DNA from: Haloplanus pelagicus
Lineage (GTDB): Archaea > Halobacteriota > Halobacteria > Halobacteriales > Haloferacaceae
NCBI RefSeq assembly: GCF_023703795.1
Contig: NZ_CP098519.1
Location: forward strand, 92,229 to 124,228
Direction: 5' to 3'
Length of the DNA stretch: 32,000 nt
Shown here one piece after another: positions 4,278 through 25,996 of this stretch. Position 1 is the first letter of the stretch. The number at the start of each line of letters is the position of its first letter. The position numbers and the translations under genes were made by a program. A model generated the notes under the pieces. It was not told the DNA's origin and did not search any database. It saw only the letters and a list, made by a program, of their open reading frames with translations.

Positions 4278-4310
4278 TTAACCAACATTAGCACTAATCT
4301 TGTTGGTTAA
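4278..4310. repeat. Perfect 10-bp inverted repeat with nested dyad
   Basis: TTAACCAACA (4278-4287) and TGTTGGTTAA (4301-4310), with inner ATTAG (4287-4291) / CTAAT (4294-4298). Confidence 0.85.
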
Positions 4311-4399
4311 TTCGGCACGTGTTCTGGATCTAGCGGGATTCCGAGACAGAAGAGTTCGAGGGGGGGAACGCTTTTATTCGGCCTCTATTATCCGCATGT

Positions 4400-5107: not shown

Positions 5108-5264
5108 AGCGTCTCAGTTGGGCTTTTCAGACTATTATCGGCTGAAACGTCTGATCGCTGGAGACTGTGTATTGAACATAACTGGTCAGAATGTAACCCG
5201 TGTTGAGGATTTCAACAGAGCTGAATTAGCGTATTTACACTCCTACTACCGACTTAACAGATTG

Positions 5265-13155: not shown

Positions 13156-13845
13156 CTACGAGAACTCCGGCCGTTCCGCGTACGCAATCGGATCGCGTGA
13201 CTCGGCATTCCGGAATGCTTCGAGTCGGAACGCACACGCATCACACGTTCCGCACGCCGGTTCCTCATCCCGGTAACACGACCACGTCATGTCGTATGGC
13301 ACACCGAGCTCCAACCCCCGCTCGGCGATCTCCGTTTTCGACCATTCGACGAACGGCGCTTTCAACTCGATCTGTGTCTCCGGTTTTGTCCCGACATCGA
13401 TCACGTTCTGAAAAGCGTCGAAAAACGCCGGGCGACAGTCAGGGTATCCGGAGAAATCCTCCGAATGTGCGCCGATAAACAGCGCCTCTGAATCAGTCGC
13501 CTCCGCGTACGACGTCGCCATCGACAACAAATTCGCATTCCGGAAGGGGACGTACGATGTCGGAATGTCGTCACTCTCAAGATCTGCGTCGGCCACGTCC
13601 ATCTCCTCGTCGGTCAAACTCGACGCACCGATCTGGGAGAGATGTCCCGTTTCGATATGGAGGAAGTCAGCCGCATCAACTTCCTCCGCGAGCGCTTTCG
13701 CACACTCGTACTCCTTGTCTTCGGTGCGCTGACCGTACGACGTATGGAGGAAGTACGGCTCGTAGCCCTGCACGATCGCCTCGTAGACAGCCGTCGCACT
13801 ATCCATCCCACCAGACACCAGAATCACCGCGCTTTTGTTGCTCAT
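13156..13845 (-). CDS. queC: 7-cyano-7-deazaguanine (preQ0) synthase
   Basis: AVILVSGGMDSATAVYEA (PP-loop), SYGQRT, VPFRNANLLSMATSYAEA, SCYRDEEPACGTCDACAFRLEAF (zinc cysteines). Confidence 0.96.
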   Translation of the reverse strand: MSNKSAVILVSGGMDSATAVYEAIVQGYEPYFLHTSYGQRTEDKEYECAKALAEEVDAADFLHIETGHLSQIGASSLTDEEMDVADADLESDDIPTSYVPFRNANLLSMATSYAEATDSEALFIGAHSEDFSGYPDCRPAFFDAFQNVIDVGTKPETQIELKAPFVEWSKTEIAERGLELGVPYDMTWSCYRDEEPACGTCDACAFRLEAFRNAESRDPIAYAERPEFS

Positions 13846-13939
13846 ATCTGCTTGGTTGCGTCGAATCGATTATCGCTCTGTTCACCACACCGCACTCGCG
13901 GCACCGTGCTCTTCTGACCGGCCTCTAAGGATAACGTGC

Positions 13940-14716
13940 TCATGTCCCCGGTGCGTCGTTCCATAGGTCCACGTGGAGTCGCGGCGTGTACCGGTAGCCG
14001 TACTCCATCGCCAGCTCGGCGACCTCGCTTCGCGTCCCGTCGAGTTGCTCGCGCGTCATGCCCTCCGGCATCAACAACACGTCATCATCGGCGACAGTCG
14101 TCGCCGTCGCTTTTTGTACTCGGTCAACCAGGTCCGTAATCTCCGGGAGGTCCGTCTCGTCGGTCACGACGAACTTGAGTTGCGTCTCGTACGTATCGAC
14201 CATCTGGGACAACGCATCCATGTCAATTCGATTCTGTTCGTGTTTCTCCTCCCACTCGCCCTCCCCCTTCGGGTCACGATCGGGTGTTGGCGTGCTGCTC
14301 GCCAGCTTCGGGCTGATACTCGCTAAATCGATCGGCGCGTCCCGGTAGATTGTCCCGTTCGTTTCCACCGTCGTGTGATAGCCGTCTGCGGCGAGTCGTT
14401 CGAGGAGTTCGACTGACTCCTCATGGATGAGTGGCTCCCCACCTGTGAGGACGACGTGGCCAGCCTGTTCGTGGGACTGTACTTCTTCCACGATCGAGTC
14501 GATGTCGCGCCACGCCCCGGTCGGCTCCCACGAGGTATGGTACGAATCACAGAACCAACACCGCAGATTACATCCAGAGGTCCGTACGAAGACGGAGGGG
14601 ACGCCTGCGAGCGTTCCCTCGCCCTGTAACGAGTAGAACACCTCGTTGATCGGGAGGCCCTCACCAGTCGCGTCAGCGTCTGTTGCGGGCTCTTCGATAT
14701 CACTAGCAACCGGCAT
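13940..14716 (-). CDS. queE: 7-carboxy-7-deazaguanine synthase (radical SAM)
   Basis: NEVFYSLQGEGTLAGVPSVFVRTSGCNLRCWFCDSYHTSWEP, HVVLTGGEPLIH, TTVETNGT, ISPKL. Confidence 0.96.
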   Translation of the reverse strand: MPVASDIEEPATDADATGEGLPINEVFYSLQGEGTLAGVPSVFVRTSGCNLRCWFCDSYHTSWEPTGAWRDIDSIVEEVQSHEQAGHVVLTGGEPLIHEESVELLERLAADGYHTTVETNGTIYRDAPIDLASISPKLASSTPTPDRDPKGEGEWEEKHEQNRIDMDALSQMVDTYETQLKFVVTDETDLPEITDLVDRVQKATATTVADDDVLLMPEGMTREQLDGTRSEVAELAMEYGYRYTPRLHVDLWNDAPGT

Positions 14717-15177
14717 CAGTACGACGCACAGAGCTCCTTGGTCTCGCTCACCGACACCGACACATCCGTCACGGTATCCGGGAACTCATCGAGCATGCGT
14801 TGTTCGAGGAGGAGGCTCATCACCTCCGCCGTCGGCGGGTGTTCCAACACCACGAGCGCGTCGCCGTCACCAGACGCCTCGAACGCATCTACAAGCGGGT
14901 CGCCCTCCTCAACCAGGAACCGGTGATCCCACGCGTCGATGACGTCCGTGACGTCGCCTTTGTCGACGACCCAGCCCTCCTCGGTGAGTTCACCGGTCAC
15001 TTCGACAGTGATCTCGTAGTTGTGGCCGTGTGGCCGCGAACACTTCCCGTCGTGATGTAGGATTCGATGACCCGAACTGATCCGGATTGGATTGTCGCCT
15101 CCGATTTTGAGTGTCCGCTGGCCTGCCTCGACCAAGTTTTCAGCCGTAGAATCATCTTGTGATATGCTTTGAGACAT
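14716..15177 (-). CDS. queD: 6-carboxy-tetrahydropterin synthase
   Basis: FSSGHRI-like ISSGHRILHHDGKCSRPHGHNYEITVEVTGEL, GWVVDKGDVTDVIDAWDHRFLVEEGDPL, HPPTAEVMS. Overlaps queE start (TGATG). Confidence 0.94.
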   Translation of the reverse strand: MSQSISQDDSTAENLVEAGQRTLKIGGDNPIRISSGHRILHHDGKCSRPHGHNYEITVEVTGELTEEGWVVDKGDVTDVIDAWDHRFLVEEGDPLVDAFEASGDGDALVVLEHPPTAEVMSLLLEQRMLDEFPDTVTDVSVSVSETKELCASY

Positions 15178-15259: not shown

Positions 15260-15424
15260 ATGAACACTTATTCACAAAGTATGGCACCTTTCACACGGAT
15301 TTTCGCCGGATTGGTGAGAGACACTTTTCCGCCAAATGTTGAGGAGCTCTCGACCGATCAAGAAGATGAACAACACCATCCAAGATTACAAATATACACT
15401 ACGATAAGAATAGACAATGAGTAA
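15260..15424 (+). CDS. Candidate small protein (54 aa)
   Basis: Open frame below the 60-aa cutoff of the track: MNTYSQSMAPFTRIFAGLVRDTFPPNVEELSTDQEDEQHHPRLQIYTTIRIDNE*. Its stop overlaps the next ORF's ATG (aATGAGTAA at 15416-15424). Confidence 0.4.
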   Translation: MNTYSQSMAPFTRIFAGLVRDTFPPNVEELSTDQEDEQHHPRLQIYTTIRIDNE

Positions 15425-15788
15425 ACGAGAAGATCAACGAGAGAGTAGCTTGTCCTTGAGTGAAATAGACTCCACGCGAGCCCCTGATGAAAAGCAAATG
15501 GACGGCAAATCTGGAGAGATGCTGTATCAGCTCAAATTTCACAAAAGGCAGGGAGCAACCACCGAGGTGGGAAAAGTAACTGAAATCGGATCGTTAGAGG
15601 ATTCGCCTCCCGTTGATCTTCAGGCACTTCAGACAGATACCTATACTCACTATGCTATCTTCCGTTTGAAAGATCGATCAACGACACTGATTGTACAAGA
15701 CGAATCTGGAAATACGCACAAAGCGCTTTCACTTGGCAAAGATACTGTGAAAGTACCTTACAAAGTGAGTATTACCATCCAATCTTAG
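15417..15788 (+). CDS. Hypothetical protein at island start
   Basis: ORF MSKREDQRESSLSLSEIDSTRAPDEKQMDGKSGEMLYQLKFHKRQGATTEVGKVTEIGS...; no recognised family. Confidence 0.6.
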   Translation: MSKREDQRESSLSLSEIDSTRAPDEKQMDGKSGEMLYQLKFHKRQGATTEVGKVTEIGSLEDSPPVDLQALQTDTYTHYAIFRLKDRSTTLIVQDESGNTHKALSLGKDTVKVPYKVSITIQS

Positions 15789-16137: not shown

Positions 16138-17205
16138 ATGCGACGATACCAATTCGATGACGTCGGCGAGATAGAATTCGTGGCGTCTGTCGCGCAAATC
16201 AATCGTTCTCAGCTTATCGATATCGTGGAGGACCTCGAGGAATACAACCTTGTAGAGTATGCTCTTGGTCGGATGATGTTTTGTCCGCTTACCTCCTCAG
16301 AGATTGCGGTTGATTATCTTGAATCGCTTTCATCGTCCTACGATCTCACATTCGCTTGTGATTCGGGAGGGTATGAGTCTCAAGTCAACGATGAATATAC
16401 GATGAAAGACATCTATACATTTGATCGAGAATACTACTTGTCGACAGACTGGCCTGACGAATTAGTTCTGCCCGACCAAGTGCCCGTAGAAGGAGACGAC
16501 GAGGCAACGATAGAGCAGAAGGTCCAGGACACAATCTCTCTCTCTCGAATGCTCTATAATGAACTACCAAGCGACAAGCAAGAGCGCGCAGTGCCAGTAA
16601 TCCAGGGGCATACTAAACAACAAATCGTTGAGTGTCTCGATGTTTATAGGAAGTTTGACAAAATAAATAAAATTGGGTTTGGGAGCTTTGGTACCGGAGG
16701 AGTAAATGGGGGTGTGAATTATTTGAATGAGGAGAATCTCGAACTACTACAATTCGTTGTGAAAGAGGCTCGGAAGTATGATCTAGACGTCCATGCATTC
16801 GGAATTGGCGGGCCAACTTCAATTCCTATCCTATATCAGTGTGGTGTTGATACGTTCGATTCGACTGGCTGGATACGATCTGGGGGTTATGGAAATATCT
16901 TTTTCCCATTTAAAAGTCGGCTTAATGTTACGCACCTTCGCAATCGGTCCGGTCCTACAGTCTTCCGAGAGGAATTGAGGGAAATAAAAGAGGAGACCGG
17001 ACATGAATGTCCGTACTGTCGGTCATTCGAATCCCTGCAAAACAGTCGTCAACATCGAATTTTACATAATCTTATTGTCATGCGTGAGATGACAGACATG
17101 ATCCTAGAATATTCGCTCGAAGAACTCATCGAGATGATGAATCCTAACTCAAAGTATACCGGCTACCTAAAGAAATTTACATCAACCGAGTCGGTCCGGA
17201 ACTGA
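16138..17205 (+). CDS. dpdA: DpdA-like TGT-fold transglycosylase (predicted 7-deazaguanine insertion into DNA)
   Basis: TGT-type motifs: TFACDSGGYES (D75, cf. TDSGGFQ), VPVIQGHT (cf. IVQG), FGIGGPTSIPILYQCGVDTFDSTGWIRSGGYGNIFFPF (D241, cf. GxDMFDCVxPTRxARxG.LF), and HECPYC...H zinc-like region. Only 355 aa, with no PUA or ArcTGT C-terminal domains. Confidence 0.85.
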   Translation: MRRYQFDDVGEIEFVASVAQINRSQLIDIVEDLEEYNLVEYALGRMMFCPLTSSEIAVDYLESLSSSYDLTFACDSGGYESQVNDEYTMKDIYTFDREYYLSTDWPDELVLPDQVPVEGDDEATIEQKVQDTISLSRMLYNELPSDKQERAVPVIQGHTKQQIVECLDVYRKFDKINKIGFGSFGTGGVNGGVNYLNEENLELLQFVVKEARKYDLDVHAFGIGGPTSIPILYQCGVDTFDSTGWIRSGGYGNIFFPFKSRLNVTHLRNRSGPTVFREELREIKEETGHECPYCRSFESLQNSRQHRILHNLIVMREMTDMILEYSLEELIEMMNPNSKYTGYLKKFTSTESVRN

Positions 17206-17252: not shown

Positions 17253-18101
17253 ATGAGTCATTACACTTCAAAATTCCATATTAGTGACCCTGGCCCACAG
17301 GAGTTGTATGAATATTTGGATACTGTGGAGGCAACATCGCCATCATCGAATCCAGAACTTCTTGAATCGGCCAGAGACCTTGGCCACTCAATCGGGAGCA
17401 AGGAGAAATCTACAGAAGGTTCGGTGCTTGGCCGGCTCGGGATTGTAGATCCCACCGATCAATTTCAGTTTACTGAACTCGGTGACTCCCTGGTCGATAT
17501 CATGTATAGGGATCGGAACCTGTTTAATACGGTACTTCATTTTCTTTATTACTCTGCTTTTGAGAGATACCCAGACAGATATGTATTTATGTCGTATACA
17601 TACAGAGAGATGACCAACTATCTCTATGATAATTCCCCGTTTAGCACTTTTCGGGGAGAGCGTGGAACAATTGTTGGTGAAGTCACCGAATTAGCAGAAC
17701 AGAGTCCAGATGTCGACGTTTCCAAGACACGAAGCGGCGTGTCACTTAGTACAAAGAGTTTCAATAATTATCTGCAGTATCTTGCGGAACTATCCCCCGA
17801 GGTGCTAGTGGAGGATGACTCTGGGAGTCCCGGATTCGAGCGACGTGCGTTCTGCCCTCCGGAACTTATGATCTTGGCCGTGGATCATATCTATAAGCAA
17901 AACGAGACAGATTATGAGACGCTCCTCAGAGTGACAGATGATACCAAAGTTCGAATTCAACAGATGTGCCTCCTCTCTGATGATGGGTTCGATGAGGTAA
18001 CCGAGTACGCTGAACAGGCGTATCCATTCTTCTCAAAGAAACATGACTTTGGTCTCAACCTTCGATTAGACCGAGAAGTAACTCTTGATGACCTCCAATA
18101 G
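17253..18101 (+). CDS. DUF4007-like / winged-helix protein, possible defence regulator or adaptor
   Basis: MSHYTSKFHISDPGPQELYEYLDTVEATSPSS...VLGRLGIVDPTDQFQFTELGDSLVDIMYRDRNLFNTVLHFLYYSAFE, similar in layout to DUF4007 proteins. Track ORF starts at TTG 17241; ATG 17253 is preferred. Confidence 0.55.
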   Translation: MSHYTSKFHISDPGPQELYEYLDTVEATSPSSNPELLESARDLGHSIGSKEKSTEGSVLGRLGIVDPTDQFQFTELGDSLVDIMYRDRNLFNTVLHFLYYSAFERYPDRYVFMSYTYREMTNYLYDNSPFSTFRGERGTIVGEVTELAEQSPDVDVSKTRSGVSLSTKSFNNYLQYLAELSPEVLVEDDSGSPGFERRAFCPPELMILAVDHIYKQNETDYETLLRVTDDTKVRIQQMCLLSDDGFDEVTEYAEQAYPFFSKKHDFGLNLRLDREVTLDDLQ

Positions 18102-18102
18102 C

Positions 18103-18504
18103 ATGTCGTCACCTGTTGCAGAACTACTACAGAAATCTAATGAGGCAAAGCGGCGACTACAAGATGACCTCCTGACCGACGATCAGATCGCAGTACGCTC
18201 GAAACTTTTGGAATTTGCTGATCAGGACGGCGGTCATTACAACTTGTATGGAGCAAGAGGTGTTGGCAAGACCACGCTGGCTAAATATATGATGGTTCAT
18301 CAGAACGGGTGGGGATACGCTCCATGGCTACCCGTGAAAAATGCCTCAACACGAGTCCTCTTCGTCGATAATGTACCGGCAACCAGGACAGCGTCACGCA
18401 GAGCGCGTGAAATTATTGGATTTGACACTCCAGACACGGTGATTTCAGTTTCGCGCAAACCGGTTCCGGAAACAAAAGCGCGTGTTACACTCTCTGACAA
18501 CTGA
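18103..18504 (+). CDS. Minimal P-loop/AAA-like ATPase (about 133 aa)
   Basis: HYNLYGARGVGKTTLAKYMMVHQ (Walker A), STRVLFVDNVPATR (degenerate Walker B), TVISVSRKPVPET. ATG 18103 lies 1 nt after the preceding stop. Confidence 0.6.
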   Translation: MSSPVAELLQKSNEAKRRLQDDLLTDDQIAVRSKLLEFADQDGGHYNLYGARGVGKTTLAKYMMVHQNGWGYAPWLPVKNASTRVLFVDNVPATRTASRRAREIIGFDTPDTVISVSRKPVPETKARVTLSDN

Positions 18505-18591
18505 TACTTACAGGAGATATTCCCCTTCTCTACTCTCTGTCGATCATCCAATAATTTATTAACAGAGAAGTGCCAGAAGGGTATAGTTACT

Positions 18592-21500
18592 ATGGGACAG
18601 GCGAATGCGCAAAATATCGAGTCCTCTCTTCGAGAACTCAATGACACGCTGAACAAAGATGAGGGGATTGTCAATACATCAAGCGCTCACCGATTTTTAG
18701 ACCAGCCGAGCGATATCGAGACCGAATACATTGAGTACGCTCGGACTCACCTGATCCAGCCAGACATTCAACGGTTTATCGATTCGTTGACTGGAGCCCT
18801 CGAAGATGAAGATCTGAATAAATCTGTTCCTGGATACATTGTGGGCCCCTACGGGTTTGGGAAGACCAGTACAACGGGAAAAGTTTGGTACCTTCTTGAC
18901 CAGGAAGACAACTACATTACTACCCCTCCGATCTATTTCGATGAACTACAGTCAATTGTCGACGCCGTGTACGGATGGATGCGGTTCCGCTTGAGGGACC
19001 GAGAAGAGCATCTAGAAACCCTCGAACAGCGGTACCAGGCCAAAGTGACCAGTAACGTCGAAGATATTGTTGACCAAACTGGATTCGATGACAAAGATCA
19101 AACCCGGGAAGAGTTCGAGCGACTAATCGAGTCGGGATCGATTGATATCGAATTCTCGGTCCAACACGTTCTGGATTTCCTTTCTGAATGTAATCAGATC
19201 GCAAAAGACGCTGGGTACAAAGGCCTCGTCGTTATTGCCGACGAACTTCAGCAGTTCATATCCAGTCACTCGTCTGACAAAGAAGCATACTCTAAGCTAC
19301 GTGATATTGCAAAAAGCACAGCCCTCGGCCTGAACGAAGGCGACGGCTTGGGTCTTCTGTTCACCATGGACGATGGTCTCCACGGAGACCTGGACGTGAA
19401 TGCAGACGATGTTCTTGCGCGGTTAGCAGAACAGAACGTTCAACTCAACTTAGCGAATGTTTACAACCGAGATTTCCCGACTAAGCTGTGGGAAAGTCTG
19501 GCTGAAACTTACGGTTTCAAGGACAGACGCTACGAAGTAATTACCGAGGATACGCTAGACGCAATTGGTCAGATCTGTGAACGTGGACCTCCTCTTTCAA
19601 ACGGCCCTCGTTCAGTTGTGGACATTCTCACGATCGCTATCGAGCACTACCTCTCTGAGTCGGAGGCGTTTGATGCTCTTGACCTCGCCAATGCGTACTA
19701 TAATGGCGTTGTCCGATTCAAAGGAGACCACATCAAAACCGCAATCACAGAGGCGATTAATTCTGATCAAATAAGTACCCCCGATCGTGAGAATTTCATC
19801 AAGCTGTGTGGGGTATTCCCTCGAGGAGTCTCAGATGACCTACTGAAGCAGTATGGGGTTCACGAGGCGAAAGAACAGGTCAAAGGAGAACTTCACGGAC
19901 AGCTCATCATCACACACGAGGAAGGGCGCACGCTCAAACGTCTTGAGCGGGAAGGAGAGGATCGTGGGATCAAAGACGAACTGTTCACACAGTTCTATCG
20001 GGATTATGACACCACAGACATCTACGATTCGAACGCTTCTGAGACGTTCCGAGAATTTGTTGTTTCGGAAGAACTCTTCCCCGCTGTTCGAGGAAAGAGT
20101 CTGAGCAGCTGGGTTACCGAACACGCCTTTGAACCCGAAACTGGAGGAGTGTACGCGGCAGTCTTTCGTGGGTCATTCAACGGGCAAGAGTACCCTGAGC
20201 GGCTTATTGAAATCCGAATGGGCACGGATGCTACATCAGTTAAATCGCCCGATGAAGGCACAGATACTGACCTCACGATTGGCTTTGCCGTTAACATGGA
20301 GAAGCAGACTGAAGTCACCCCTCACATCGAACGGGTATCTACTGACGAGGTTCTTCTACATCTAGACTTAGCTGATTCTTTCGACAGCCTCCCGAGCAAT
20401 ATCGTTATGTTGGAAGATTACATGAGTCCGGAAGATGTCAGCCCCCATCTGCTGCTCTCCTTACATCACTTCATGCGTAATTGGGAGGAGAACCAAACAG
20501 TCAATCCCAACCAGGAGACACAGTTGGAATATATCCGTGACCAGTTAGTCACGCAAAGCATTCAGAAGGCGTTTGGCCCTCCCCTGAATGGGGACGACTT
20601 CCTCGATGAATCAGGGAGTAGTCGCCGGACCGTTGATCCGTCAAAGGTCGTCGAGAAAATCTTCAACCGTGTAATCGAAGAGGTCTATCCTGATTATAAA
20701 ACTCTCTTCATCTCGGACAATTACCAGACCTTCTTAGATGACTATGAATCTCTCCTAGTAGGAAACGATCCGAATATCCGGATCTCACAAAAGCGGGGTA
20801 ATACCCCAATTGAAGGGACAAAAAGCGATATTTCCAACGCGATCGGGGTATCTAGTAACTCGACAGCAAAAACACGTCTTGATAAACAATTTGAAGATCT
20901 CGTTGACACTGAAGTCTGGCAGGGCAAGGATGCCAGGGTTCGATTGACCCTTCATCCCCTTGAGGAACTTCTTAAAGACCATATCGAGGAGCAAGAGAAG
21001 GAAACTGTCGCCGTCAGTGAGTTATATGATGTAGCCGGGGAGAAAGGGTACCGGCAGGAAGAAGTTGACTGGGCAGTCCGCCTCCTTGTTGGTCGAGATT
21101 TCATCAAGCATGATCAAAACGATGAAACGGTCGAACTGAGCGACATTGCTATCGACATCGACCAAGTCAAATCTCGGCTGGAATCACTCCGAAACACGGC
21201 TGCGGAGCTCAACGAAATCTCGAACGAGTGGAGTGAGTATGACTCGATCACTAATGAGTTGAATCGCCTTGAGGAGGAACTCAGCGGAACGACGAATGAC
21301 GACATTGAGATACTCGATGATCTTAACGCCGAGCTAGAAGAGGTAGATTCGCAGATCTCGACGCAGATCAAGGCCACAAGTGCGACCCTTCGTGAACGTG
21401 CCCGAGGAACAATAGACAGACTCAAAGGACTTTCATCCAGCAACAAGCCTCGCGATCTGAAAAAGACTGTCGAGAAGTCTAATGTTCCGTTCGGCCTCCA

Positions 21501-22683
21501 TATCAAAGACATCGAGACTGAACTATCATCCAACTTTACAAAAGCAACTACAGAGGCCGACTCTGCCCGCTCAGATCTTGATACAGATCTCGAGATTGCA
21601 TCTGGCACGGCAGCTCTGAGTGAGATTAATACTCTACAGGACTCAATTGAGGAGGCGAAAGAAATCGCTGAGCAGGTTGATGAAGAATTAGAGGATATCA
21701 AAGAGGACGCGGCTGACTACGCGGATTGGTGTCGACTTGCAAATGACATGGACGCTGCTCGTTCGGATATTGTTCAGTATGCAAATACTCATCCTGACAA
21801 CAGTGCCGCGATGTCAATCAGGGATGAGCTTACCGCTCTGATGAGTGAGATTCAGACTGAGTTCCAGAAGGGCAGTGACCACGATGACTTCCCTCAGGCA
21901 CTGCGGAATGCCGAAATGTATCGGCAGCAGTTCGAAGACCTCAAAGACCAATTCGAGGAGATAACTCAGGGGGACGAAGAGAACTTCAATTACCGGAAGA
22001 ATGTGCTTGAGAACACGCTGAAGATTGGTACTTCCGGCCACCCAAGTATCAGACAAAACTTGAGTCCTAACAATGCTGAGAAGTCACGTAATGACCTCAA
22101 GCATGAGTTCCGCCGCCAGCTGGTTGAGAACAGCGATGGAATCGAAGATGTAAAGTCCGATATCAAATCGATTGAGACCAGCATTGAGTATGCTGAGTTG
22201 TTGAATCAGGTTCCGGATGAAGCTGACCCGACTCCGGCTGATATCCGCGATCAGATAGTCGATTTCGAATCTACTATTGAAGATATCCATCAGGCTGTCA
22301 GTCAAATGGATATCACTTCGGCTATCCGACTTCCGACTGAGGGTGGCCGTTCGAACTCGTTCCCCAACACCGATGAGAAATTGAGTCTCTCGATTGACAA
22401 CCGCGAGGTGAACGTCGGCGAACGAATCGACGAAATCCGAGATTCAATTGAGGCACTCCATCAAGACGTTCGTGAGTGGCGACAGGTTACTGAGACTCCC
22501 CCAGAAGATCTTGAATATATTATGGATGAACTGGACTATCGGGATCAGTCTGACTTGGAGAGCGTCCTAATTTCAGTCTCTGAAAAGAAAGGTGACACCG
22601 ACGTTGCAGAGTTCTTTGCCGATCTGGAAACCTTATTCGAGGGGAACCACATCACGGTCTCGATCAAAAGCGAACATAGGTAA
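18592..22683 (+). CDS. BrxC/PglY-like large ATPase
   Basis: 1363 aa. VPGYIVGPYGFGKTSTTGKVWYLL (Walker A, aa 85-92), GYKGLVVIADELQQFISSH (Walker B), long C-terminal coiled-coil-like region. Directly followed by a PglZ-domain gene. Confidence 0.75.
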   Translation: MGQANAQNIESSLRELNDTLNKDEGIVNTSSAHRFLDQPSDIETEYIEYARTHLIQPDIQRFIDSLTGALEDEDLNKSVPGYIVGPYGFGKTSTTGKVWYLLDQEDNYITTPPIYFDELQSIVDAVYGWMRFRLRDREEHLETLEQRYQAKVTSNVEDIVDQTGFDDKDQTREEFERLIESGSIDIEFSVQHVLDFLSECNQIAKDAGYKGLVVIADELQQFISSHSSDKEAYSKLRDIAKSTALGLNEGDGLGLLFTMDDGLHGDLDVNADDVLARLAEQNVQLNLANVYNRDFPTKLWESLAETYGFKDRRYEVITEDTLDAIGQICERGPPLSNGPRSVVDILTIAIEHYLSESEAFDALDLANAYYNGVVRFKGDHIKTAITEAINSDQISTPDRENFIKLCGVFPRGVSDDLLKQYGVHEAKEQVKGELHGQLIITHEEGRTLKRLEREGEDRGIKDELFTQFYRDYDTTDIYDSNASETFREFVVSEELFPAVRGKSLSSWVTEHAFEPETGGVYAAVFRGSFNGQEYPERLIEIRMGTDATSVKSPDEGTDTDLTIGFAVNMEKQTEVTPHIERVSTDEVLLHLDLADSFDSLPSNIVMLEDYMSPEDVSPHLLLSLHHFMRNWEENQTVNPNQETQLEYIRDQLVTQSIQKAFGPPLNGDDFLDESGSSRRTVDPSKVVEKIFNRVIEEVYPDYKTLFISDNYQTFLDDYESLLVGNDPNIRISQKRGNTPIEGTKSDISNAIGVSSNSTAKTRLDKQFEDLVDTEVWQGKDARVRLTLHPLEELLKDHIEEQEKETVAVSELYDVAGEKGYRQEEVDWAVRLLVGRDFIKHDQNDETVELSDIAIDIDQVKSRLESLRNTAAELNEISNEWSEYDSITNELNRLEEELSGTTNDDIEILDDLNAELEEVDSQISTQIKATSATLRERARGTIDRLKGLSSSNKPRDLKKTVEKSNVPFGLHIKDIETELSSNFTKATTEADSARSDLDTDLEIASGTAALSEINTLQDSIEEAKEIAEQVDEELEDIKEDAADYADWCRLANDMDAARSDIVQYANTHPDNSAAMSIRDELTALMSEIQTEFQKGSDHDDFPQALRNAEMYRQQFEDLKDQFEEITQGDEENFNYRKNVLENTLKIGTSGHPSIRQNLSPNNAEKSRNDLKHEFRRQLVENSDGIEDVKSDIKSIETSIEYAELLNQVPDEADPTPADIRDQIVDFESTIEDIHQAVSQMDITSAIRLPTEGGRSNSFPNTDEKLSLSIDNREVNVGERIDEIRDSIEALHQDVREWRQVTETPPEDLEYIMDELDYRDQSDLESVLISVSEKKGDTDVAEFFADLETLFEGNHITVSIKSEHR

Positions 22684-22688
22684 CTCCC

Positions 22689-23864
22689 GTGTCTACCCGC
22701 ACTATTGAGTCACTGTCTGCCTTGGCTGAAGCGACACGTGACGGACCAGTTGTCGCAAATATCGGAGGGCTCGAGTCTCGAGTACTACAAAACAGGCATG
22801 GTATCGATACCCTTGAATCGCTTGAAGAGTTTTACCGCCTCTATGAGTCTCCGACTAATTTGTTTGAAACCGATGTGATCATTCGGGATCAGGGATCTAA
22901 GCCGTCCTTTGATAGGTCACTTACGCTCTACAACCCACCTTCGATAGAACAGGTCGAATACACTGGCACCGTGTACGATAGGTCGCTTAATGGACTCATA
23001 TCAGAAGGGTCGATTTCTTGGGACGATGTGGAGAGCACAACCACTTGTCAATCAGAGGTCGGCGATCTCATCACGGAGGCGGCATCTGATGTTGATGTTA
23101 TTGCGCTGGTTATTGTTGATGGCCTCTCCTATCAGGATTGGACAGACTCAGGCTATGAGGCAGAGCCAATCTATGTTGATTGCCCAACACGTACAGATTG
23201 TGGCTACCCAAATGTCGTCCGTGGGGCATCCAACGGGAAGCATCTCCAATATCGGCTTTTCAACGAGGGATATAAAACCCGGAAGGCGTTCACCTACTGG
23301 GAACGTAAGGATAACGACCTTTCTGACGAATTGCACGATGGTTTCTCCAAGAACGACGTAATCGGAAACATCCAGGACTTTGCTGATTCCATCTCATATT
23401 TACAGACCCACGATTGGTATCGACCGAAGACCTATCTCCAGTTCACTCTTACCGGTCCTGAACGTGTAGCGCACCGAATGAAGGAGGATCCTGTGATCCA
23501 GAGTGAGGTAGACGCAGTTCATCAAAAGTTGTCTGACCTCCGTGAAACAATCAGCAAAGAAACGGACTCATTCCGTATTTTCGCTGTTGCCGACCATGGT
23601 ATTCTCTGGCGGATGGATACTGACTTTGAGGCACTTGATGAAAAGTGGAAGCAGGGAATTCGTCGGGACTATGAAGACCCTCCAGCCAGCGCATCTGTTC
23701 CTGAGTCCGTTGGTGAAACATCCTTCTGGGCTGGTCAGCAATATCTCCGGCTTTATCACCCACACATATTCAATAACCTACGAAGTAACGAACCAGGAGT
23801 ACACGGTGGCTTTTCGTACCAAGAGTCCATTGTTCCGTTAATTGAATACGAGGATCTGAAATGA
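22689..23864 (+). CDS. pglZ: PglZ-domain protein (alkaline phosphatase superfamily, compact)
   Basis: GTG start 22689. VIALVIVDGLSYQDW, PTRTDCGYPNVVRGASNGK, FRIFAVADHGILW, EPGVHGGFSYQESIVPLIEYE, in PglZ order. 391 aa. Confidence 0.82.
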   Translation: MSTRTIESLSALAEATRDGPVVANIGGLESRVLQNRHGIDTLESLEEFYRLYESPTNLFETDVIIRDQGSKPSFDRSLTLYNPPSIEQVEYTGTVYDRSLNGLISEGSISWDDVESTTTCQSEVGDLITEAASDVDVIALVIVDGLSYQDWTDSGYEAEPIYVDCPTRTDCGYPNVVRGASNGKHLQYRLFNEGYKTRKAFTYWERKDNDLSDELHDGFSKNDVIGNIQDFADSISYLQTHDWYRPKTYLQFTLTGPERVAHRMKEDPVIQSEVDAVHQKLSDLRETISKETDSFRIFAVADHGILWRMDTDFEALDEKWKQGIRRDYEDPPASASVPESVGETSFWAGQQYLRLYHPHIFNNLRSNEPGVHGGFSYQESIVPLIEYEDLK

Positions 23865-25030
23865 CACAAGAAATATTCATTGGCGAGGAACGTGATAGCG
23901 GCGAGGAAACGCTTATTGACACTTCGAAGGCCCGTGCTCTCTTCGTTTGTGGGAAGCGAGGGACCGGCAAGAGCTATTCGTTGGGAAACGTCATCGAGGA
24001 GGTCAACCGAGAGATGCCCGACACAGTTCCCCTTGTTGTTGACCCGATGGGGATTTACTGGACGATGGCCGAACCAAATGACGAACAGCAAGATCTCCTC
24101 TGGGATTGGGGAATGCAGCCGACTGGGTTTGACACTACACTCCTCGTTCCGGGCGATCCAACAGAACGTTACGGACCTGAAGTCTACGATGAGATGATGC
24201 GCCGCGGTATCGAAATCGAGAGCCTGCGTCTCAATCCTTCTGACATTTCTCCCGATGGGTGGTGTGAACTCTTCGATCTCAATATAAACAAACCGATGGG
24301 TATTGCGTTGTACCGAGCTGTCCGTTCGCTAAACGAATCTCAAGACTTCTTTGACCTGGACGAGCTCATCGAAGAAGTTGAATACGACGAAAAAGCAAAC
24401 GAGCGGACTGTGGACGCTCTTGTCAATCGTCTGGAGATGGCACACGAATGGGGCATCTTTAGTGACTCATATACAGACATCTGGAACAATCTCGATCCTT
24501 CTCGGGTTAATATTCTCGACGTGAGTGTTCTCGACCCAGGGAAGTACGGTCTTCGTAATTTGGTCGTCTACGTACTGACAAAAAAAATATTTGATGAGCG
24601 ATCGAAAGCGCGCCGTCGAGAGGAACTACAGTTGTCCTCTGATATTCCGAAGGTCTGGCTATTCATCGATGAAGCACACAATTTTGCACCGTCCGGGTCG
24701 TCCTCGCTTGCGAAGGATATCTTGATTCGATGGATCAAGGAGGGACGTCAGCCGGGGCTGTCGCTCGGCATAGCAACTCAACAGCCAAGTGCTGTATCCT
24801 CAGATGTCGTGTCCCAAATGGACTTGATTTTCTGTCACAAAATCACTACTCGCACTGATATTCAGTCGCTGAACGAACTAAGTCAGGAGTACATGGGGAG
24901 TCAGCTGAAGACCTATATCAAGAAAATCGATAAAGTTGGTGAAGCAGTCTGCGTCGATGACGAAAGAGAAGTAGTAACGCAGGTTCAAATGCGACCACGT
25001 ATGAGTCAGCATGGTGGCAGCGGGGCATGA
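23861..25030 (+). CDS. HerA-like P-loop ATPase/translocase
   Basis: ARALFVCGKRGTGKSYSLGNVIEEV (Walker A), VPLVVDPMGIYWTM, VWLFIDEAHNFAPSGSSSLAKDILIRWIKEGRQPGLSLGIATQQPSAVSSDVVSQMDLIFCHKI. ATGA overlap with the pglZ stop. Confidence 0.88.
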   Translation: MTQEIFIGEERDSGEETLIDTSKARALFVCGKRGTGKSYSLGNVIEEVNREMPDTVPLVVDPMGIYWTMAEPNDEQQDLLWDWGMQPTGFDTTLLVPGDPTERYGPEVYDEMMRRGIEIESLRLNPSDISPDGWCELFDLNINKPMGIALYRAVRSLNESQDFFDLDELIEEVEYDEKANERTVDALVNRLEMAHEWGIFSDSYTDIWNNLDPSRVNILDVSVLDPGKYGLRNLVVYVLTKKIFDERSKARRREELQLSSDIPKVWLFIDEAHNFAPSGSSSLAKDILIRWIKEGRQPGLSLGIATQQPSAVSSDVVSQMDLIFCHKITTRTDIQSLNELSQEYMGSQLKTYIKKIDKVGEAVCVDDEREVVTQVQMRPRMSQHGGSGA

Positions 25031-25563
25031 CAACAAATATTCAACGATCAAACAATTCTACGGCAGTGCCAACTACAGTCGACCTCCAGATCTCTGACTT
25101 CCTTGTCAAATCAATTAGTAAAAGTGAGAGATCGGTATCAGAATTGAATTCTTTTTTTAATTCTAATCAGATCAAATCTGAACTCCATTGGTTCACTCAT
25201 CGGGACACCCTGGAACGTGCAGCGTCACGGCCTGACCGACGGTTGTTTTATTTTGCACCCCACGATGCGATCATCGGCGGACTCATGATTTGGTGTGAAT
25301 CGAGAGTGCTTGACCAAACGGAAGCACAAATACGCCTTGTTGCTGTTTCACCAGATTATCGAGGCTATGGAATCGGACAGTACTTAGTGAAAAAGGCTAT
25401 TGAATTTGCAAAAGAGCATAATAAGGAATCAATAATCGCGGACGTTGCAGCCGAAGCTCCCGCAGTACAATTCTGGGAGGCTATCGGGTTTCACAAAGTT
25501 GATTCGTACTTTACAAATGGTGGTCGAGAAATGTATCAGATGGAACGGCACCTGAGTAAGTGA
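25027..25563 (+). CDS. GNAT-family acyltransferase
   Basis: IRLVAVSPDYRGYGIGQYLVKKAIEFAKEHNKESIIADVAAEAPAVQFWEAIGFHKVDSYF. ATGA overlap with the HerA-like gene. Confidence 0.88.
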   Translation: MTTNIQRSNNSTAVPTTVDLQISDFLVKSISKSERSVSELNSFFNSNQIKSELHWFTHRDTLERAASRPDRRLFYFAPHDAIIGGLMIWCESRVLDQTEAQIRLVAVSPDYRGYGIGQYLVKKAIEFAKEHNKESIIADVAAEAPAVQFWEAIGFHKVDSYFTNGGREMYQMERHLSK

Positions 25564-25597: not shown

Positions 25598-25996
25598 ATG
25601 TCACAGTCCTCTTCCAGTTCTGAACGAAGTTCCTTACTGGACTCTTTTGAAGCCCCGGAGACGTCAGTCGCTCAGGTGTATACGTTTGAAACAGACGAGG
25701 TAACAGCACTCTGTCCGTTCGACTTCGGAGGGCCTGATTACTATGAGTTCACTCTAAAATACGTTCCTTCCGAAGACTGTGTCGAGAGCAAGAGCCTGAA
25801 AAAGTTCCTTGAATCGTATCGTGATGTTGAGATCACTGCCGAAGGACTTGGTGCCGAGATGTATGAAGAAATCACCGAGACAATATCTCCTAAAAAAATG
25901 TACATCCGGCTCGAACAGGCACGGCGAGGTGGGATTGAAGAAACTGTTGAGTTCGGTGATATAGAATTGAAGTCCGCAAGAGAGCAGGTACAATAA
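25598..25996 (+). CDS. QueF/QueF-L-like T-fold enzyme acting on preQ0 (reductase or amidinotransferase)
   Basis: EVTALCPFDFGGPDYYEFTLKYVPSEDCVESKSLKKFLESYRD...RLEQARRGGI aligns with QueF (EFTSLCP..GQPDFA..ISYIPD..CVESKSLKLYLFSFR...RGGI). C39 and D47 match the catalytic Cys/Asp. Confidence 0.85.
   Translation: MSQSSSSSERSSLLDSFEAPETSVAQVYTFETDEVTALCPFDFGGPDYYEFTLKYVPSEDCVESKSLKKFLESYRDVEITAEGLGAEMYEEITETISPKKMYIRLEQARRGGIEETVEFGDIELKSAREQVQ

What the first reader, a model, noticed from the sequence alone, without database searches (positions are those of the whole stretch)
17253..23864. DUF4007-like + small P-loop + BrxC-like + PglZ: possible Pbe-type four-gene effector
Four consecutive genes sit between dpdA and the HerA-like gene. 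The order (regulator-like wHTH protein, small ATPase, giant BrxC-like ATPase, compact PglZ) may correspond to the archaeal PbeABCD module that normally pairs with DndCDEA phosphorothioation. If so, the same effector has been re-paired with a chemically different DNA mark, showing modular swapping. I could not verify the Pbe correspondence and offer it as a hypothesis.
Basis: inference. Interest (0 to 1): 0.85.

Follow-up and report, generated by a model that had tools for sequence, protein, structure and literature searches.

The report
BREX-like core of deazaguanine defence island
These four genes are real, but they are not the archaeal Pbe module: they are the BREX-like middle of a recently described, untested "BREX-related capture" defence island in a salt-loving archaeon. 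The island probably marks its own DNA with a 7-deazaguanine base.

Summary
The four genes exist exactly where stated, between a DpdA-like transglycosylase (TGT) and a HerA-like ATPase. They form one tightly packed operon in Haloplanus pelagicus. The gene labels mostly hold:
- The 1363-aa protein is BrxC-like; its model's best solved-structure match is Acinetobacter BrxC.
- The 391-aa protein is a PglZ with an intact active site.
- The 139-aa protein is a P-loop NTPase.
- The 286-aa protein has an N-terminal winged helix. I could not confirm its "DUF4007" label.

The Pbe interpretation fails. PbeABCD is an HKD-helicase, a tiny protein, a CxC ABC ATPase and a DndE-like protein. None of these resembles the four genes here.

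The locus matches the seven-component BREX-Related Capture (BRC) system published in NAR in 2026. Its PglZ is at least 90% identical to a sequence in that paper's alignment.

Comparison of 57 related loci adds two points:
- TGT/GNAT, the wHTH protein and BrxC-like form a constant core. The small NTPase, PglZ and HerA form one of two mutually exclusive partner sets; the other is Druantia-like DruF/L/E. The four genes are therefore not one effector.
- Haloarchaeal loci also carry QueF and usually lie next to preQ0 synthesis genes; some also adjoin an AddAB-like pair. This suggests a dPreQ1-type mark.

The parts
13156..13845 (-). QueC (preQ0 synthesis). It lies next to the island and its membership is probable, not proven.
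   Evidence: Pfam QueC 3.8e-72. QueC/QueE(/QueD, FolE) lie next to the system in the window, L001, L002/3 and L004, in different arrangements. GC is 0.58, against 0.44-0.50 for the core genes.
13940..14716 (-). QueE (radical SAM, preQ0 synthesis)
   Evidence: Pfam Radical_SAM 1e-17. The orthologue is adjacent in L001, L002 and L004.
14716..15177 (-). QueD / PTPS (preQ0 synthesis)
   Evidence: Pfam PTPS 4.6e-21. The orthologue is adjacent in L001 and L002. A QueD gene also sits directly upstream of the GNAT-TGT fusion in Acidobacteria loci L049, L051 and L055.
15417..15788 (+). Conserved small protein of unknown function (123 aa) at the low-GC edge of the island
   Evidence: No Pfam hit. Orthologues lie in L001 (79% identity) and L004 (48%) within the same island.
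16138..17205 (+). DpdA-like transglycosylase (TGT family), the predicted base-exchange enzyme
   Evidence: Pfam TGT 1.4e-10; PADLOC DpdA 1.5e-5; NCBIfam DpdA scores only 23.5 bits against a cut-off of 200. In 46 family members these residues are invariant: D75 (DSGG motif), D241 (FDS motif) and the zinc ligands H289, C291, C294 and H310.
17253..18101 (+). wHTH protein, called "DUF4007/BrxA-like" in the BRC paper; a constant partner of BrxC-like
   Evidence: The ORF opens at TTG 17241, but Met5 (ATG 17253) is invariant. In the AF2 model, residues 20-100 have pLDDT above 85 with a winged-helix pattern, while the C-terminal third is below 50. There are weak DtxR-type wHTH hits. It is present next to the BrxC-like gene in about 50 loci. 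DUF4007 membership was not confirmed.
18085..18504 (+). Small P-loop NTPase (the paper's "STAND NTPase/BrxB counterpart"). It co-occurs only with PglZ and HerA.
   Evidence: Pfam AAA_25 4.6e-6. Walker A G56..G61-K62-T63 and Walker B hhhhD95-N96 are conserved. It is the fastest-evolving component, at 33-40% identity among haloarchaea. hhalign against E. coli BrxB is negative, Prob 0.2.
18592..22683 (+). BrxC-like ORC/Cdc6-type AAA+ ATPase with a long helical C-terminal half; the predicted hub
   Evidence: Pfam BrxC_BrxD 2.3e-6, above the cut-off. Foldseek top hits are BrxC 9zll_D, 9zll_B and 9zdx_C (E 1.8e-6 to 9e-6), then Orc1/Cdc6. Walker A G88-G90-K91-T92 and Walker B D217-E218 are invariant. 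PADLOC SspC hits 8 of 21 family members. RefSeq names it "BREX system ATP-binding domain-containing protein", WP_251331426.1.
22689..23864 (+). Compact PglZ (alkaline-phosphatase superfamily), the predicted nicking or phosphodiesterase effector
   Evidence: PADLOC PglZ 3.9e-6. D144-G145, T169, H262 and H372-G373 are invariant; D302-H303-G304 and E379 are nearly invariant (90% or more). hhalign against E. coli HS PglZ gives Prob 91.6, E 8.3e-7. Weak PDB profile hits go only to PglZ-domain proteins: PorX 8ted, and PglZ 9zn5 and 9nv3.
23861..25030 (+). HerA/FtsK-type ATPase (389 aa), the predicted DNA translocase of the effector set
   Evidence: Pfam DUF87 4.2e-12; PADLOC HerA 1.2e-19, mad8 1.3e-18, DndH 2.8e-7. 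It is the most conserved component, at 83-84% identity to L001 and L002.
25027..25563 (+). GNAT acyltransferase, a constant partner of the TGT (fused to it in many bacteria)
   Evidence: Pfam Acetyltransf_1 2.3e-14. GNAT-TGT fusions of 460-560 aa occur in Poribacteria, Acidobacteria, Planctomycetota and other loci. The acetyl-CoA loop glycine G117 is conserved.
25598..25996 (+). Unimodular QueF-type protein, a predicted preQ0-to-preQ1 nitrile reductase. Haloarchaeal loci only.
   Evidence: Pfam QueF 6.3e-17; TIGR03139 scores 81.9 bits against a cut-off of 86.9. The best PDB hit is B. subtilis QueF 4f8b (9e-8), against 1.5e-4 for QueF-L 5jyx. The catalytic Cys (TALCP), the Asp (GGPDY) and the NADPH motif ESKSLKKF are kept, and His96 is replaced by Ala. 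It is present in 6 of 6 haloarchaeal loci and in none of the others at E below 1e-4.
26569..29154 (+). AddB-like PD-(D/E)XK nuclease subunit; possible accessory degradation module
   Evidence: Pfam PDDEXK_1 3.8e-11 and a weak UvrD_C hit. It is adjacent to the system in the window, L001 and L002/3, in three different orientations. GC is 0.55.
29151..32000 (+). AddA/UvrD-like helicase-nuclease (runs off the window end); possible accessory degradation module
   Evidence: Pfam UvrD-helicase 2.4e-53, UvrD_C 6e-30, PDDEXK_1 4e-9. It overlaps the AddB-like gene by 4 nt. It has 74% and 61% identity to the orthologues in L001 and L002.

Best explanation
The four genes are the BREX-like middle of a roughly 10-kb, horizontally acquired defence operon in Haloplanus pelagicus. 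The operon runs TGT, wHTH protein, small NTPase, BrxC-like ATPase, PglZ, HerA, GNAT, QueF. It belongs to the computationally defined BREX-Related Capture (BRC) class.

**Proposed working (all inferred; nothing has been tested experimentally).**
1. QueC, QueD and QueE make preQ0, and the island's QueF reduces it to preQ1.
2. The DpdA-like TGT swaps a 7-deazaguanine base into host DNA. Its constant partner GNAT possibly acylates that base.
3. The BrxC-like AAA+ ATPase and its obligate wHTH partner form the hub of the system. They bind DNA, load or license the TGT in an ATP-dependent way, and check whether DNA carries the mark. This resembles BrxC in BREX, SspB/SspC in Ssp, and MtsA/MtsB in MANTIS.
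4. The small NTPase and PglZ dock on the hub in the way BrxB-PglZ docks on BrxC. Together with the HerA translocase they capture and nick unmarked incoming DNA.
5. Neighbouring nucleases, here an AddAB-like pair, may finish the degradation.

The four genes are therefore two halves of two different modules, hub and effector, and not a self-contained effector. They have nothing to do with PbeABCD.
For: **Identity with BRC.**
- All seven BRC components occur in the published combination (PMC12839542).
- The window's PglZ shares a 90% cluster with Halorubrum ezzemoulense WP_271955572.1, and L001 is Halorubrum sp. SD683. Both are named in the paper's alignments.

**BrxC-like.** The best solved-structure match is BrxC (9zll/9zdx, E 1.8e-6).

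**PglZ.** The active-site residues are conserved, and hhalign against E. coli PglZ gives Prob 91.6.

**TGT.** The catalytic aspartates and zinc ligands are invariant in 46 homologues.

**Module boundaries.**
- In 57 related loci, GNAT/TGT, the wHTH protein and BrxC-like are constant.
- The set small NTPase + PglZ + HerA (18 loci) and the set DruF + DruL + DruE (25 loci) never co-occur (p = 2.4e-6).
- BrxC-like proteins split into two clades that follow these partner sets.

**Precedents.**
- The solved complex 9zll contains BrxC, BrxB and the PglZ N-terminus.
- BrxC dimers bind PglZ-BrxB dimers, and the DUF499 ATPase MtsA with MtsB loads the methyltransferase in an ATP-dependent way (preprint 10.64898/2026.09.23.753747).

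**QueF.**
- Nitrile-reductase residues and the NADPH motif are kept.
- Homologues include the validated phiSM QueF and haloviral QueFs (PMC10516641).
- Halovirus HVTV-1 DNA carries dPreQ1 at about 30% of its guanines (PMC6884629).
- Archaea normally lack QueF (PMC6884629), and the island supplies one in 6 of 6 haloarchaeal loci.

**Horizontal acquisition.**
- Core genes have GC 0.44-0.50, against 0.55-0.60 for the flanking genes.
- Copies at least 90% identical occur in Halorubrum ezzemoulense.
Against: - No experiment exists for any BRC locus. Defence, the chemical mark and the roles of individual proteins are all inferred.
- The hub's role in modification is not shown. A Thermocrinis virus carries GNAT + TGT of this family without the wHTH protein or BrxC-like, so the TGT may work alone.
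- I could not reproduce the DUF4007/BrxA and BrxB/STAND assignments.
- The small NTPase has Walker B "DN" rather than "DE". It also has a degenerate Walker A in Halorubrum SD683, so it may be a switch or may be inactive.
- Methanogen and bacterial loci have GNAT but no QueF nearby, so GNAT cannot generally depend on preQ1.
- QueC/D/E and the AddAB-like genes have host-like GC in the window, so they could be housekeeping neighbours.
- QueF has Ala in place of His96.
Confidence: 0.7

Rival explanations
1. The four genes are a PbeABCD-type effector, which normally partners DndCDEA phosphorothioation and is here re-paired with a 7-deazaguanine mark.
For: Only superficial resemblance: four genes, one of them a large ATPase with a long helical region, in a haloarchaeon next to a DNA-modification gene. 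One of 21 BrxC-like family members gave a PADLOC PbeC hit at E 0.031.
Against: - PbeA is an HKD nuclease fused to an SF2 helicase, PbeB is a 66-aa protein, PbeC is a CxC Zn-hook ABC ATPase and PbeD is DndE-like.
- The genes here are a wHTH protein, a P-loop NTPase, an ORC/Cdc6-type AAA+ ATPase (structural best hit BrxC) and a PglZ.
- The window proteins give no PADLOC Pbe hits.
- The window contains no dnd genes.
Confidence: 0.02
2. The published BRC partition. All four genes plus HerA form a pure sensing and restriction complex. TGT and GNAT alone write the mark (dPreQ0). The wHTH protein and BrxC-like play no part in modification.
For: - The BRC paper proposes this division, with the small NTPase possibly substituting for DpdB.
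- A virus encodes GNAT + TGT of this family without the wHTH protein or BrxC-like, which suggests the enzyme pair is self-sufficient.
Against: - The wHTH protein and BrxC-like stay with TGT/GNAT when the effector set changes to DruF/L/E. They are therefore not tied to the PglZ/HerA machine.
- The small NTPase is absent from all 25 Druantia-type loci that still have the TGT, so it cannot be the general DpdB substitute.
- In BREX-related MANTIS, the BrxC-type ATPase is required for modification.
- The presence of QueF argues against "dPreQ0 alone" in haloarchaea.
Confidence: 0.22
3. Not an immune system. The TGT, QueF and GNAT genes serve tRNA modification or deazapurine metabolism, and the BREX-like genes are an unrelated neighbouring DNA-maintenance module or remnant.
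For: - The TGT scores far below the DpdA equivalog cut-off (23.5 against 200 bits).
- QueC/D/E next door have host-like GC.
Against: - Strict co-linearity, and in places fusion, of GNAT, TGT, the wHTH protein and BrxC-like holds across archaea and seven or more bacterial phyla.
- The partner sets are known defence machinery: PglZ/HerA, or Druantia DruE at about 1500 bits.
- The island has low GC, and near-identical copies occur in another family of haloarchaea.
- The TGT also scores far below the arcTGT model (23.3 against 350 bits).
Confidence: 0.04

Closest known systems
BREX-Related Capture (BRC) system (NAR 2026, PMC12839542)
   Same: It has the same seven components: PglZ, a DUF6079/BrxC-like ATPase, a small NTPase, a "DUF4007" DNA-binding protein, HerA/FtsK, GNAT and TGT. 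Haloarchaeal members are listed in the paper, and the window's PglZ is at least 90% identical to one of them.
   Different: - The paper does not mention QueF, QueC/D/E, preQ1 or AddAB. It suggests the mark is dPreQ0 alone and that backup nucleases are mostly absent.
- It treats HerA as the universal anchor and TGT/GNAT as optional.
- Starting from the BrxC-like protein, I find the opposite: TGT/GNAT, the wHTH protein and BrxC-like are the constant set.
BREX type 1 (BrxA, BrxB, BrxC, PglX, PglZ, BrxL)
   Same: It shares the BrxC-type AAA+ hub (best structural hit) and an active PglZ. A small NTPase occupies the position of BrxB, and a solved BrxC-BrxB-PglZ complex exists (9zll).
   Different: - The locus has no PglX methyltransferase and no BrxL.
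- PglZ is half the length (391 aa against 865 aa).
- Sequence similarity to E. coli BrxC, BrxA and BrxB is not detectable by hhalign.
- A HerA ATPase and a base-exchange enzyme are added.
Ssp system and type-4 BREX (SspB/DUF4007 + SspC/BrxC-like ATPase + PAPS reductase, phosphorothioation)
   Same: A DNA-binding protein and a BrxC-like ATPase form an obligate pair next to a non-methyl DNA-modifying enzyme. SspC is the PADLOC model most often hit by the BrxC-like family (8 of 21 members, best 1e-7).
   Different: - The locus has no PAPS reductase or cysteine desulfurase, and the mark is a deazaguanine base, not sulfur.
- The window's own BrxC-like protein does not reach the SspC model.
- Homology of the wHTH protein to SspB is unconfirmed.
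Dpd system (DpdA-K, Salmonella Montevideo)
   Same: A TGT-family enzyme is expected to insert a preQ0-derived base into DNA as a self mark, and preQ0 genes lie nearby.
   Different: - The locus has no DpdB (ParB-like), no DpdC and no DpdD-K helicases.
- The TGT is not an equivalog of DpdA.
- GNAT and QueF are present instead.
MANTIS / Gao_RL (preprint 10.64898/2026.09.23.753747)
   Same: It gives experimental precedent for a BrxC-related AAA+ ATPase and a small co-factor loading the modification enzyme on DNA in an ATP-dependent way, and also being needed for restriction.
   Different: MANTIS uses a methyltransferase and a PLD-helicase effector. Its ATPase is of the DUF499 type, and MtsB is unrelated to the proteins here.
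PbeABCD (DndCDEA-associated, Haloterrigena jeotgali)
   Same: It is a haloarchaeal four-gene module next to a DNA-modification cluster.
   Different: Every component differs: HKD-SF2 helicase, 66-aa protein, CxC ABC ATPase and DndE-like protein.

Membership tests
BRC (BREX-Related Capture) system | PglZ-domain protein (compact, with an N-terminal extra domain) | tested here: met
   PADLOC PglZ 3.9e-6. The catalytic residues are conserved. hhalign against E. coli PglZ gives Prob 91.6. The protein is in the same 90% cluster as WP_271955572.1, which is used in the paper. I did not test the N-terminal inactive-Swi2/Snf2 claim.
BRC (BREX-Related Capture) system | BrxC-like ORC/Cdc6 AAA+ ATPase (DUF6079) | tested here: met
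   Pfam BrxC_BrxD is above its cut-off. Foldseek top hits are BrxC 9zll/9zdx, followed by Orc1/Cdc6.
BRC (BREX-Related Capture) system | Small STAND-type NTPase, homologue of BrxB | tested here: inconclusive
   The P-loop NTPase with Walker A and Walker B(DN) is confirmed. hhalign against E. coli BrxB is negative, and PDB profile hits are generic P-loops only.
BRC (BREX-Related Capture) system | DUF4007 / BrxA-like tripartite DNA-binding protein | tested here: inconclusive
   An N-terminal wHTH is likely. However, 0 of 28 members hit Pfam DUF4007 at E up to 1, and none of the 120 listed family members (180 found) has a precomputed Pfam domain. There is no PADLOC SspB or BrxA hit, hhalign against E. 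coli BrxA gives Prob 0.4, and Foldseek finds nothing. The model's C-terminal third is unreliable.
BRC (BREX-Related Capture) system | HerA/FtsK ATPase, GNAT and TGT in the same operon | tested here: met
   Pfam DUF87, Acetyltransf_1 and TGT hits. The genes overlap or abut the four focal genes.
PbeABCD | PbeA: HKD nuclease fused to an SF2 helicase | tested here: not met
   None of the four genes has a helicase or HKD/PLD domain in Pfam or PADLOC. Definition.
PbeABCD | PbeC: CxC Zn-hook ABC (SMC-like) ATPase | tested here: not met
   The large ATPase is an ORC/Cdc6-type AAA+ protein. PADLOC PbeC hits only 1 of 21 family members, at E 0.031.
PbeABCD | PbeD: DndE-like protein, with linkage to dndCDEA | tested here: not met
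   No DndE-like protein and no dnd genes were found among the window ORFs scanned.
BREX (types 1-6) | BrxC/PglY-type ATPase plus PglZ | tested here: met
BREX (types 1-6) | Type-defining modification enzyme: PglX/PglXI methyltransferase, or BrxP PAPS reductase | tested here: not met
   No methyltransferase or PAPS reductase was found in any scanned ORF of the window.
Dpd system | DpdA equivalog together with DpdB (ParB-like ATPase) and DpdC (DUF328) | tested here: not met
   NCBIfam DpdA scores 23.5 bits against a cut-off of 200. No ParB-like or DUF328 protein is present in the window. The BRC paper also reports no DpdB or DpdC.
Ssp / type-4 BREX | SspC-type ATPase with SspB (DUF4007), plus PAPS reductase and cysteine desulfurase | tested here: not met
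   PADLOC SspC hits 8 of 21 family members but not the window protein. SspB is not detected. The sulfur-transfer enzymes are absent.

The most novel reading that the evidence does not exclude
GNAT/TGT, the wHTH protein and the BrxC-like ATPase together form a portable, ATP-dependent base-exchange "writer/reader" module. This module has been plugged into at least two unrelated effector machines: small NTPase-PglZ-HerA in archaea and some bacteria, and Druantia-type DruF-DruL-DruE in Chloroflexota, Poribacteria, Acidobacteriota, Planctomycetota and others.

In haloarchaea the module, with an imported QueF, would write dPreQ1 or a new N-acyl-dPreQ1 into cellular DNA. That would be the first such mark in a cellular (non-viral) genome, and a mark distinct from the dPreQ1 used by haloviruses such as HVTV-1.
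Probability: 0.3. Interest if true: 0.75.

Novelty: new member of a known kind. Interest (0 to 1): 0.45.

Why it matters
- **A tractable test case.** BRC systems have only been predicted. A haloarchaeal copy sits in a cultured organism (Haloplanus pelagicus, with near-identical copies in Halorubrum ezzemoulense), and a genetic host such as Haloferax volcanii is available. This makes it possible to test whether BREX-type machinery can use a base-exchange mark instead of methylation.
- **A checkable chemical prediction.** The QueF and GNAT genes predict dPreQ1 or acyl-dPreQ1 in chromosomal DNA, which mass spectrometry can check. dPreQ1 is so far known only from viruses.
- **A testable view of BrxC.** A sibling architecture couples the same core to Druantia-type genes. 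This suggests BrxC-type hubs are general adaptors between a DNA mark and interchangeable effectors, which bears on the unresolved mechanisms of both BREX and Druantia.
- **A correction.** Pbe is not a DUF4007/BrxC/PglZ module.

Tried and rejected
**Pbe correspondence: rejected.** The basis is the published Pbe architectures and the absence of PADLOC Pbe hits.

**DUF4007 identity of the 286-aa protein: all tests negative or uninformative.**
- Pfam on 28 family members.
- PADLOC on the same members.
- Precomputed Pfam domains on the 120 listed homologues of 180 found.
- PDB profile search.
- AF2 model followed by Foldseek against the PDB.
- hhalign against E. coli BrxA.

**Other comparisons.**
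- Small NTPase against E. coli BrxB by hhalign: negative.
- BrxC-like family against E. coli BrxC by hhalign: weak, Prob 1.7. The link was later settled by structure.

**Island borders.** No tRNA gene and no flanking direct repeats were found.

**Other candidate classifications.**
- BRIGADE, another haloarchaeal 7-deazaguanine system, needs YprA helicases and PLD nucleases, which are absent here.
- I considered GNAT acting specifically on preQ1 in all family members. This is weakened because most loci have GNAT without QueF.

Full report
**What is in the window**

The window is from Haloplanus pelagicus (Haloplanus sp. HW8-1), from a contig of 124,451 bp. The proteins match WP_251331423.1 to WP_251331428.1 exactly. 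A low-GC stretch of about 11 kb (roughly 15.2-26.5 kb, GC 0.44-0.50) lies between flanks of GC 0.55-0.60.

Within this stretch is one co-oriented, tightly packed gene string:

| Coordinates | Product |
|---|---|
| 15417-15788 | conserved 123-aa ORF |
| 16138-17205 | TGT/DpdA-like transglycosylase |
| 17253-18101 | 286-aa wHTH protein |
| 18085-18504 | 139-aa P-loop NTPase |
| 18592-22683 | 1363-aa BrxC-like ATPase |
| 22689-23864 | 391-aa PglZ |
| 23861-25030 | HerA |
| 25027-25563 | GNAT |
| 25598-25996 | QueF-type protein |

Divergently upstream lie QueD, QueE and QueC (13156-15177, minus strand). Downstream lies an AddB-like/AddA-like helicase-nuclease pair (26569 to beyond 32000). No methyltransferase, PAPS reductase, dnd gene, ParB-like protein or DUF328 protein was found in any scanned ORF of the window.

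**Observation check**

The ATG at 17253 is an invariant Met in the family alignment, and 23864 is the PglZ stop.

- **BrxC-like.** The 1363-aa protein scores above the Pfam BrxC_BrxD cut-off. An AF2 model of residues 1-800 (pLDDT 84.2) has BrxC of the Acinetobacter BREX system as its four best matches among solved structures (9zll, 9zdx; E 1.8e-6 to 3e-5). Orc1/Cdc6 proteins follow. Walker A and Walker B (DE) are invariant. The C-terminal roughly 500 residues are helical and low in complexity, matching only apolipoprotein-like sequences.
- **PglZ.** The 391-aa protein has a PADLOC PglZ hit (3.9e-6). hhalign against E. coli HS PglZ gives Prob 91.6 and E 8e-7. Its only PDB profile hits are weak, but all are PglZ-domain proteins: PorX and PglZ. 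The metal and nucleophile residues are conserved: D144-G145, T169, H262 and H372-G373 are invariant, and D302-H303-G304 and E379 are nearly so (90% or more).
- **Small NTPase.** The 139-aa protein has a conserved Walker A motif and an hhhhDN Walker B motif.
- **wHTH protein.** The 286-aa protein has a confidently modelled N-terminal helical/winged-helix part (residues 20-100, pLDDT above 85) and an unreliable C-terminal third.

I could not verify the "DUF4007", "BrxA-like" or "BrxB-like" labels with any available test. They rest on the structure modelling reported in the BRC paper.

**The Pbe hypothesis fails**

PbeABCD consists of a helicase-like PbeA, a 66-aa PbeB, an "SMC-like" PbeC and a 152-aa PbeD (PMC6459918). 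These were later re-annotated as an HKD nuclease fused to an SF2 helicase, a fast-evolving small protein, a CxC Zn-hook ABC ATPase and a DndE cognate (PMC10853773). Nothing in the four genes matches this.

PADLOC, which contains Pbe models, returned none for the window proteins. It returned a single E = 0.031 PbeC hit among 21 BrxC-like family members.

SspC is in fact the PADLOC model most often hit by this ATPase family (8 of 21 members, best 1e-7).

**What it is**

A January 2026 NAR paper (PMC12839542; preprint October 2025) defines "BREX-Related Capture" (BRC) systems. [quoted passage not shown] The seven components are PglZ, a DUF6079/BrxC-like ATPase, a STAND NTPase, DUF4007, HerA/FtsK, GNAT and TGT. 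This is exactly the operon here.

The paper's alignments name Halorubrum sp. SD683, whose locus I fetched as L001. They also name Halorubrum ezzemoulense WP_271955572.1, which falls in the same 90% identity cluster as the window's PglZ. The finding is therefore a member of a known, purely computational class.

Near-identity (90-94%) between copies in Haloplanus and in Halorubrum ezzemoulense, together with the low GC, indicates recent horizontal transfer.

**What the related loci add**

I collected 57 loci that encode relatives of the BrxC-like protein. I annotated them with iteratively built HMMs and with Pfam and PADLOC spot checks. Four results follow.

1. **A constant core.** The constant set is GNAT (separate from or fused to TGT), TGT, the wHTH protein and BrxC-like.
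2. **Two exclusive partner sets.**
   - The small NTPase, PglZ and HerA occur together in 18 loci, counting the window.
   - In 25 other loci the same core sits next to DruF, DruL and DruE (PADLOC DruE4/DruE2 at about 1300-1540 bits).
   - No locus has both sets (Fisher p = 2.4e-6).
   - BrxC-like proteins fall into two clades that follow this split. One clade is long (about 1300-1380 aa) and the other is short (about 1155-1260 aa).
   - Several Chloroflexota loci carry an extra wHTH/long-BrxC pair.
3. **QueF in haloarchaea only.** QueF is present in all six haloarchaeal loci and in no other locus at E below 1e-4. QueC/E(/D, FolE) genes lie next to the island in the window and three further haloarchaeal contexts, four contexts in all.
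4. **Variable neighbouring nucleases.**
   - An AddAB-like pair lies next to the island in three contexts, in three different orientations.
   - Halorientalis (L005) and a Desulfotomaculum MAG (L047) have a calcineurin-type phosphoesterase there instead; the Halorientalis one is fused to an RNase H-like domain.
   - Two bacterial loci insert an Mrr_N protein between PglZ and HerA.

The BRC paper mentions none of QueF, QueC, preQ1 or AddAB. It regards TGT/GNAT as optional, HerA as universal and dPreQ0 as the likely mark.

**Mechanism (inferred)**

The TGT keeps the two catalytic aspartates and the zinc site in all 46 homologues, so base exchange is plausible.

QueF keeps the catalytic Cys and Asp and the NADPH motif (ESKSLKKF). 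It is closer to B. subtilis QueF than to the amidinotransferase QueF-L. It is also related to phage QueFs shown or inferred to make preQ1, in phiSM, Dp-1 and haloviruses.

Archaea normally insert preQ0 and lack QueF. An island-borne QueF therefore suggests a preQ1-type mark. There is precedent in halovirus HVTV-1, whose DNA has dPreQ1 at about 30% of guanines.

Phages formylate or methylate the aminomethyl group of dPreQ1, so GNAT acylation of that amine is chemically natural. However, most non-haloarchaeal loci have GNAT without QueF, which leaves the substrate of GNAT open.

The BrxC-like ATPase and its wHTH partner stay with the TGT whichever effector set is present. I therefore read them as the hub that couples the mark to restriction. 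There are three precedents:
- BREX BrxC binds BrxB-PglZ (solved complex 9zll).
- The DUF499 ATPase MtsA, with MtsB, loads the MANTIS methyltransferase in an ATP-dependent way.
- SspB and SspC act within the Ssp modification module.

On this reading the small NTPase, PglZ and HerA are the effector set. PglZ would nick DNA and HerA would translocate or capture it, as the BRC paper proposes, with neighbouring nucleases as optional finishers.

A caveat is that a Thermocrinis virus carries GNAT + TGT of this family without the hub proteins. The enzyme pair may therefore work on its own, at least for bulk modification.

**Verdict**

The Pbe reading is wrong. The broader idea, BREX-type machinery re-paired with a 7-deazaguanine mark, is right but already published as BRC.

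Three points are new here:
- The haloarchaeal QueF, preQ0 and AddAB-like genes.
- The different module boundary: a constant hub and a swappable effector set, in place of a single four-gene effector.
- The Druantia-coupled sibling architecture.

Nothing has been tested experimentally.

Noticed in passing
L008, L010-L014, L016, L018, L020, L022, L029, L033, L037, L040-L046, L049-L051, L053, L055 (e.g. L037:7311-22339): In 25 bacterial loci the same GNAT-TGT, wHTH and BrxC-like core lies next to Druantia-type DruF, DruL and DruE. PADLOC DruE4/DruE2 scores about 1300-1540 bits. These loci come from Chloroflexota, Poribacteria, Acidobacteriota, Planctomycetota and Latescibacterota, and have no small NTPase, PglZ or HerA. 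A full-text search for Druantia with DUF4007 returned nothing, and the Druantia-with-deazaguanine hits I looked at did not describe it.
   Followed up: partly
L010:14016-18877, L011, L013:13369-18152, L015, L016, L018, L022, L029: Several Chloroflexota Druantia-type loci carry a second wHTH/BrxC-like pair without its own TGT. Its long BrxC-like protein (about 1320-1360 aa) clusters with the PglZ/HerA-type clade. Its role is unknown.
   Followed up: partly
L023:5488-7241 and L006:16039-17735: The Methanocaldococcus indicus and Methanosarcina loci have no QueF. Both carry a pair made of an HGD-D-like protein (2-hydroxyacyl-CoA dehydratase family) and a BcrAD/BadFG activator ATPase, on opposite sides of the operon. 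This may be an alternative base-tailoring or reducing enzyme.
   Followed up: no
L059 (BK013347.1, Thermocrinis Great Boiling Spring virus) 3953-5130: A hot-spring virus encodes an acetyltransferase next to a TGT that is 37% identical to the window's TGT. The genes sit in its replication module, without the wHTH or BrxC-like proteins. It was the only viral hit for this TGT.
   Followed up: partly
window 15417-15788; L001:17628-18002; L004:20705-21079: A conserved 123-aa protein with no detectable domain travels with the haloarchaeal island, at 79% and 48% identity.
   Followed up: no
window 3037-4074 (-) and 5265-6293 (-); L002:1604-3570: An Mrr-type restriction endonuclease lies in a very low-GC patch (0.40), with an Orc1/Cdc6 gene upstream of the island. 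The related metagenomic locus L002 also has Mrr_cat genes upstream. This may be a wider defence or mobile region.
   Followed up: no
window 11827-12807; L002:22946-23848: An ADP-ribosylglycohydrolase gene lies near the system in both the window and L002, on different sides.
   Followed up: no
L001:9273-9698: The Halorubrum sp. SD683 small NTPase has a degenerate Walker A motif (GRDETKLT instead of GxxGxGKT). Haloarchaeal versions also lack the C-terminal roughly 35 residues found elsewhere. This is the fastest-evolving component.
   Followed up: partly
L047:11674-12339, L019:15303-15866; L047:13561-14880, L005:14488-16593: Mrr_N-domain proteins are inserted between PglZ and HerA in two bacterial loci. 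Calcineurin-type phosphoesterases, one fused to an RNase H-like domain, take the place next to the operon that the AddAB-like pair occupies in the window.
   Followed up: no
window 16138-17205 and 22689-23864: RefSeq annotates shorter versions of two genes: the TGT as 326 aa (WP_251331423.1) and PglZ as 380 aa (WP_251331427.1). The full ORFs are 355 aa and 391 aa, and both full-length sequences are on record in the NCBI source. Start sites are therefore uncertain.
   Followed up: no
L010:13644-13988; L011:13563-14015: A small ORF directly after the BrxC-like gene in two Chloroflexus loci weakly matches my haloarchaeal QueF profile (E 8.5e-4 and 5e-3) but has no Pfam hit. It is unresolved.
   Followed up: partly
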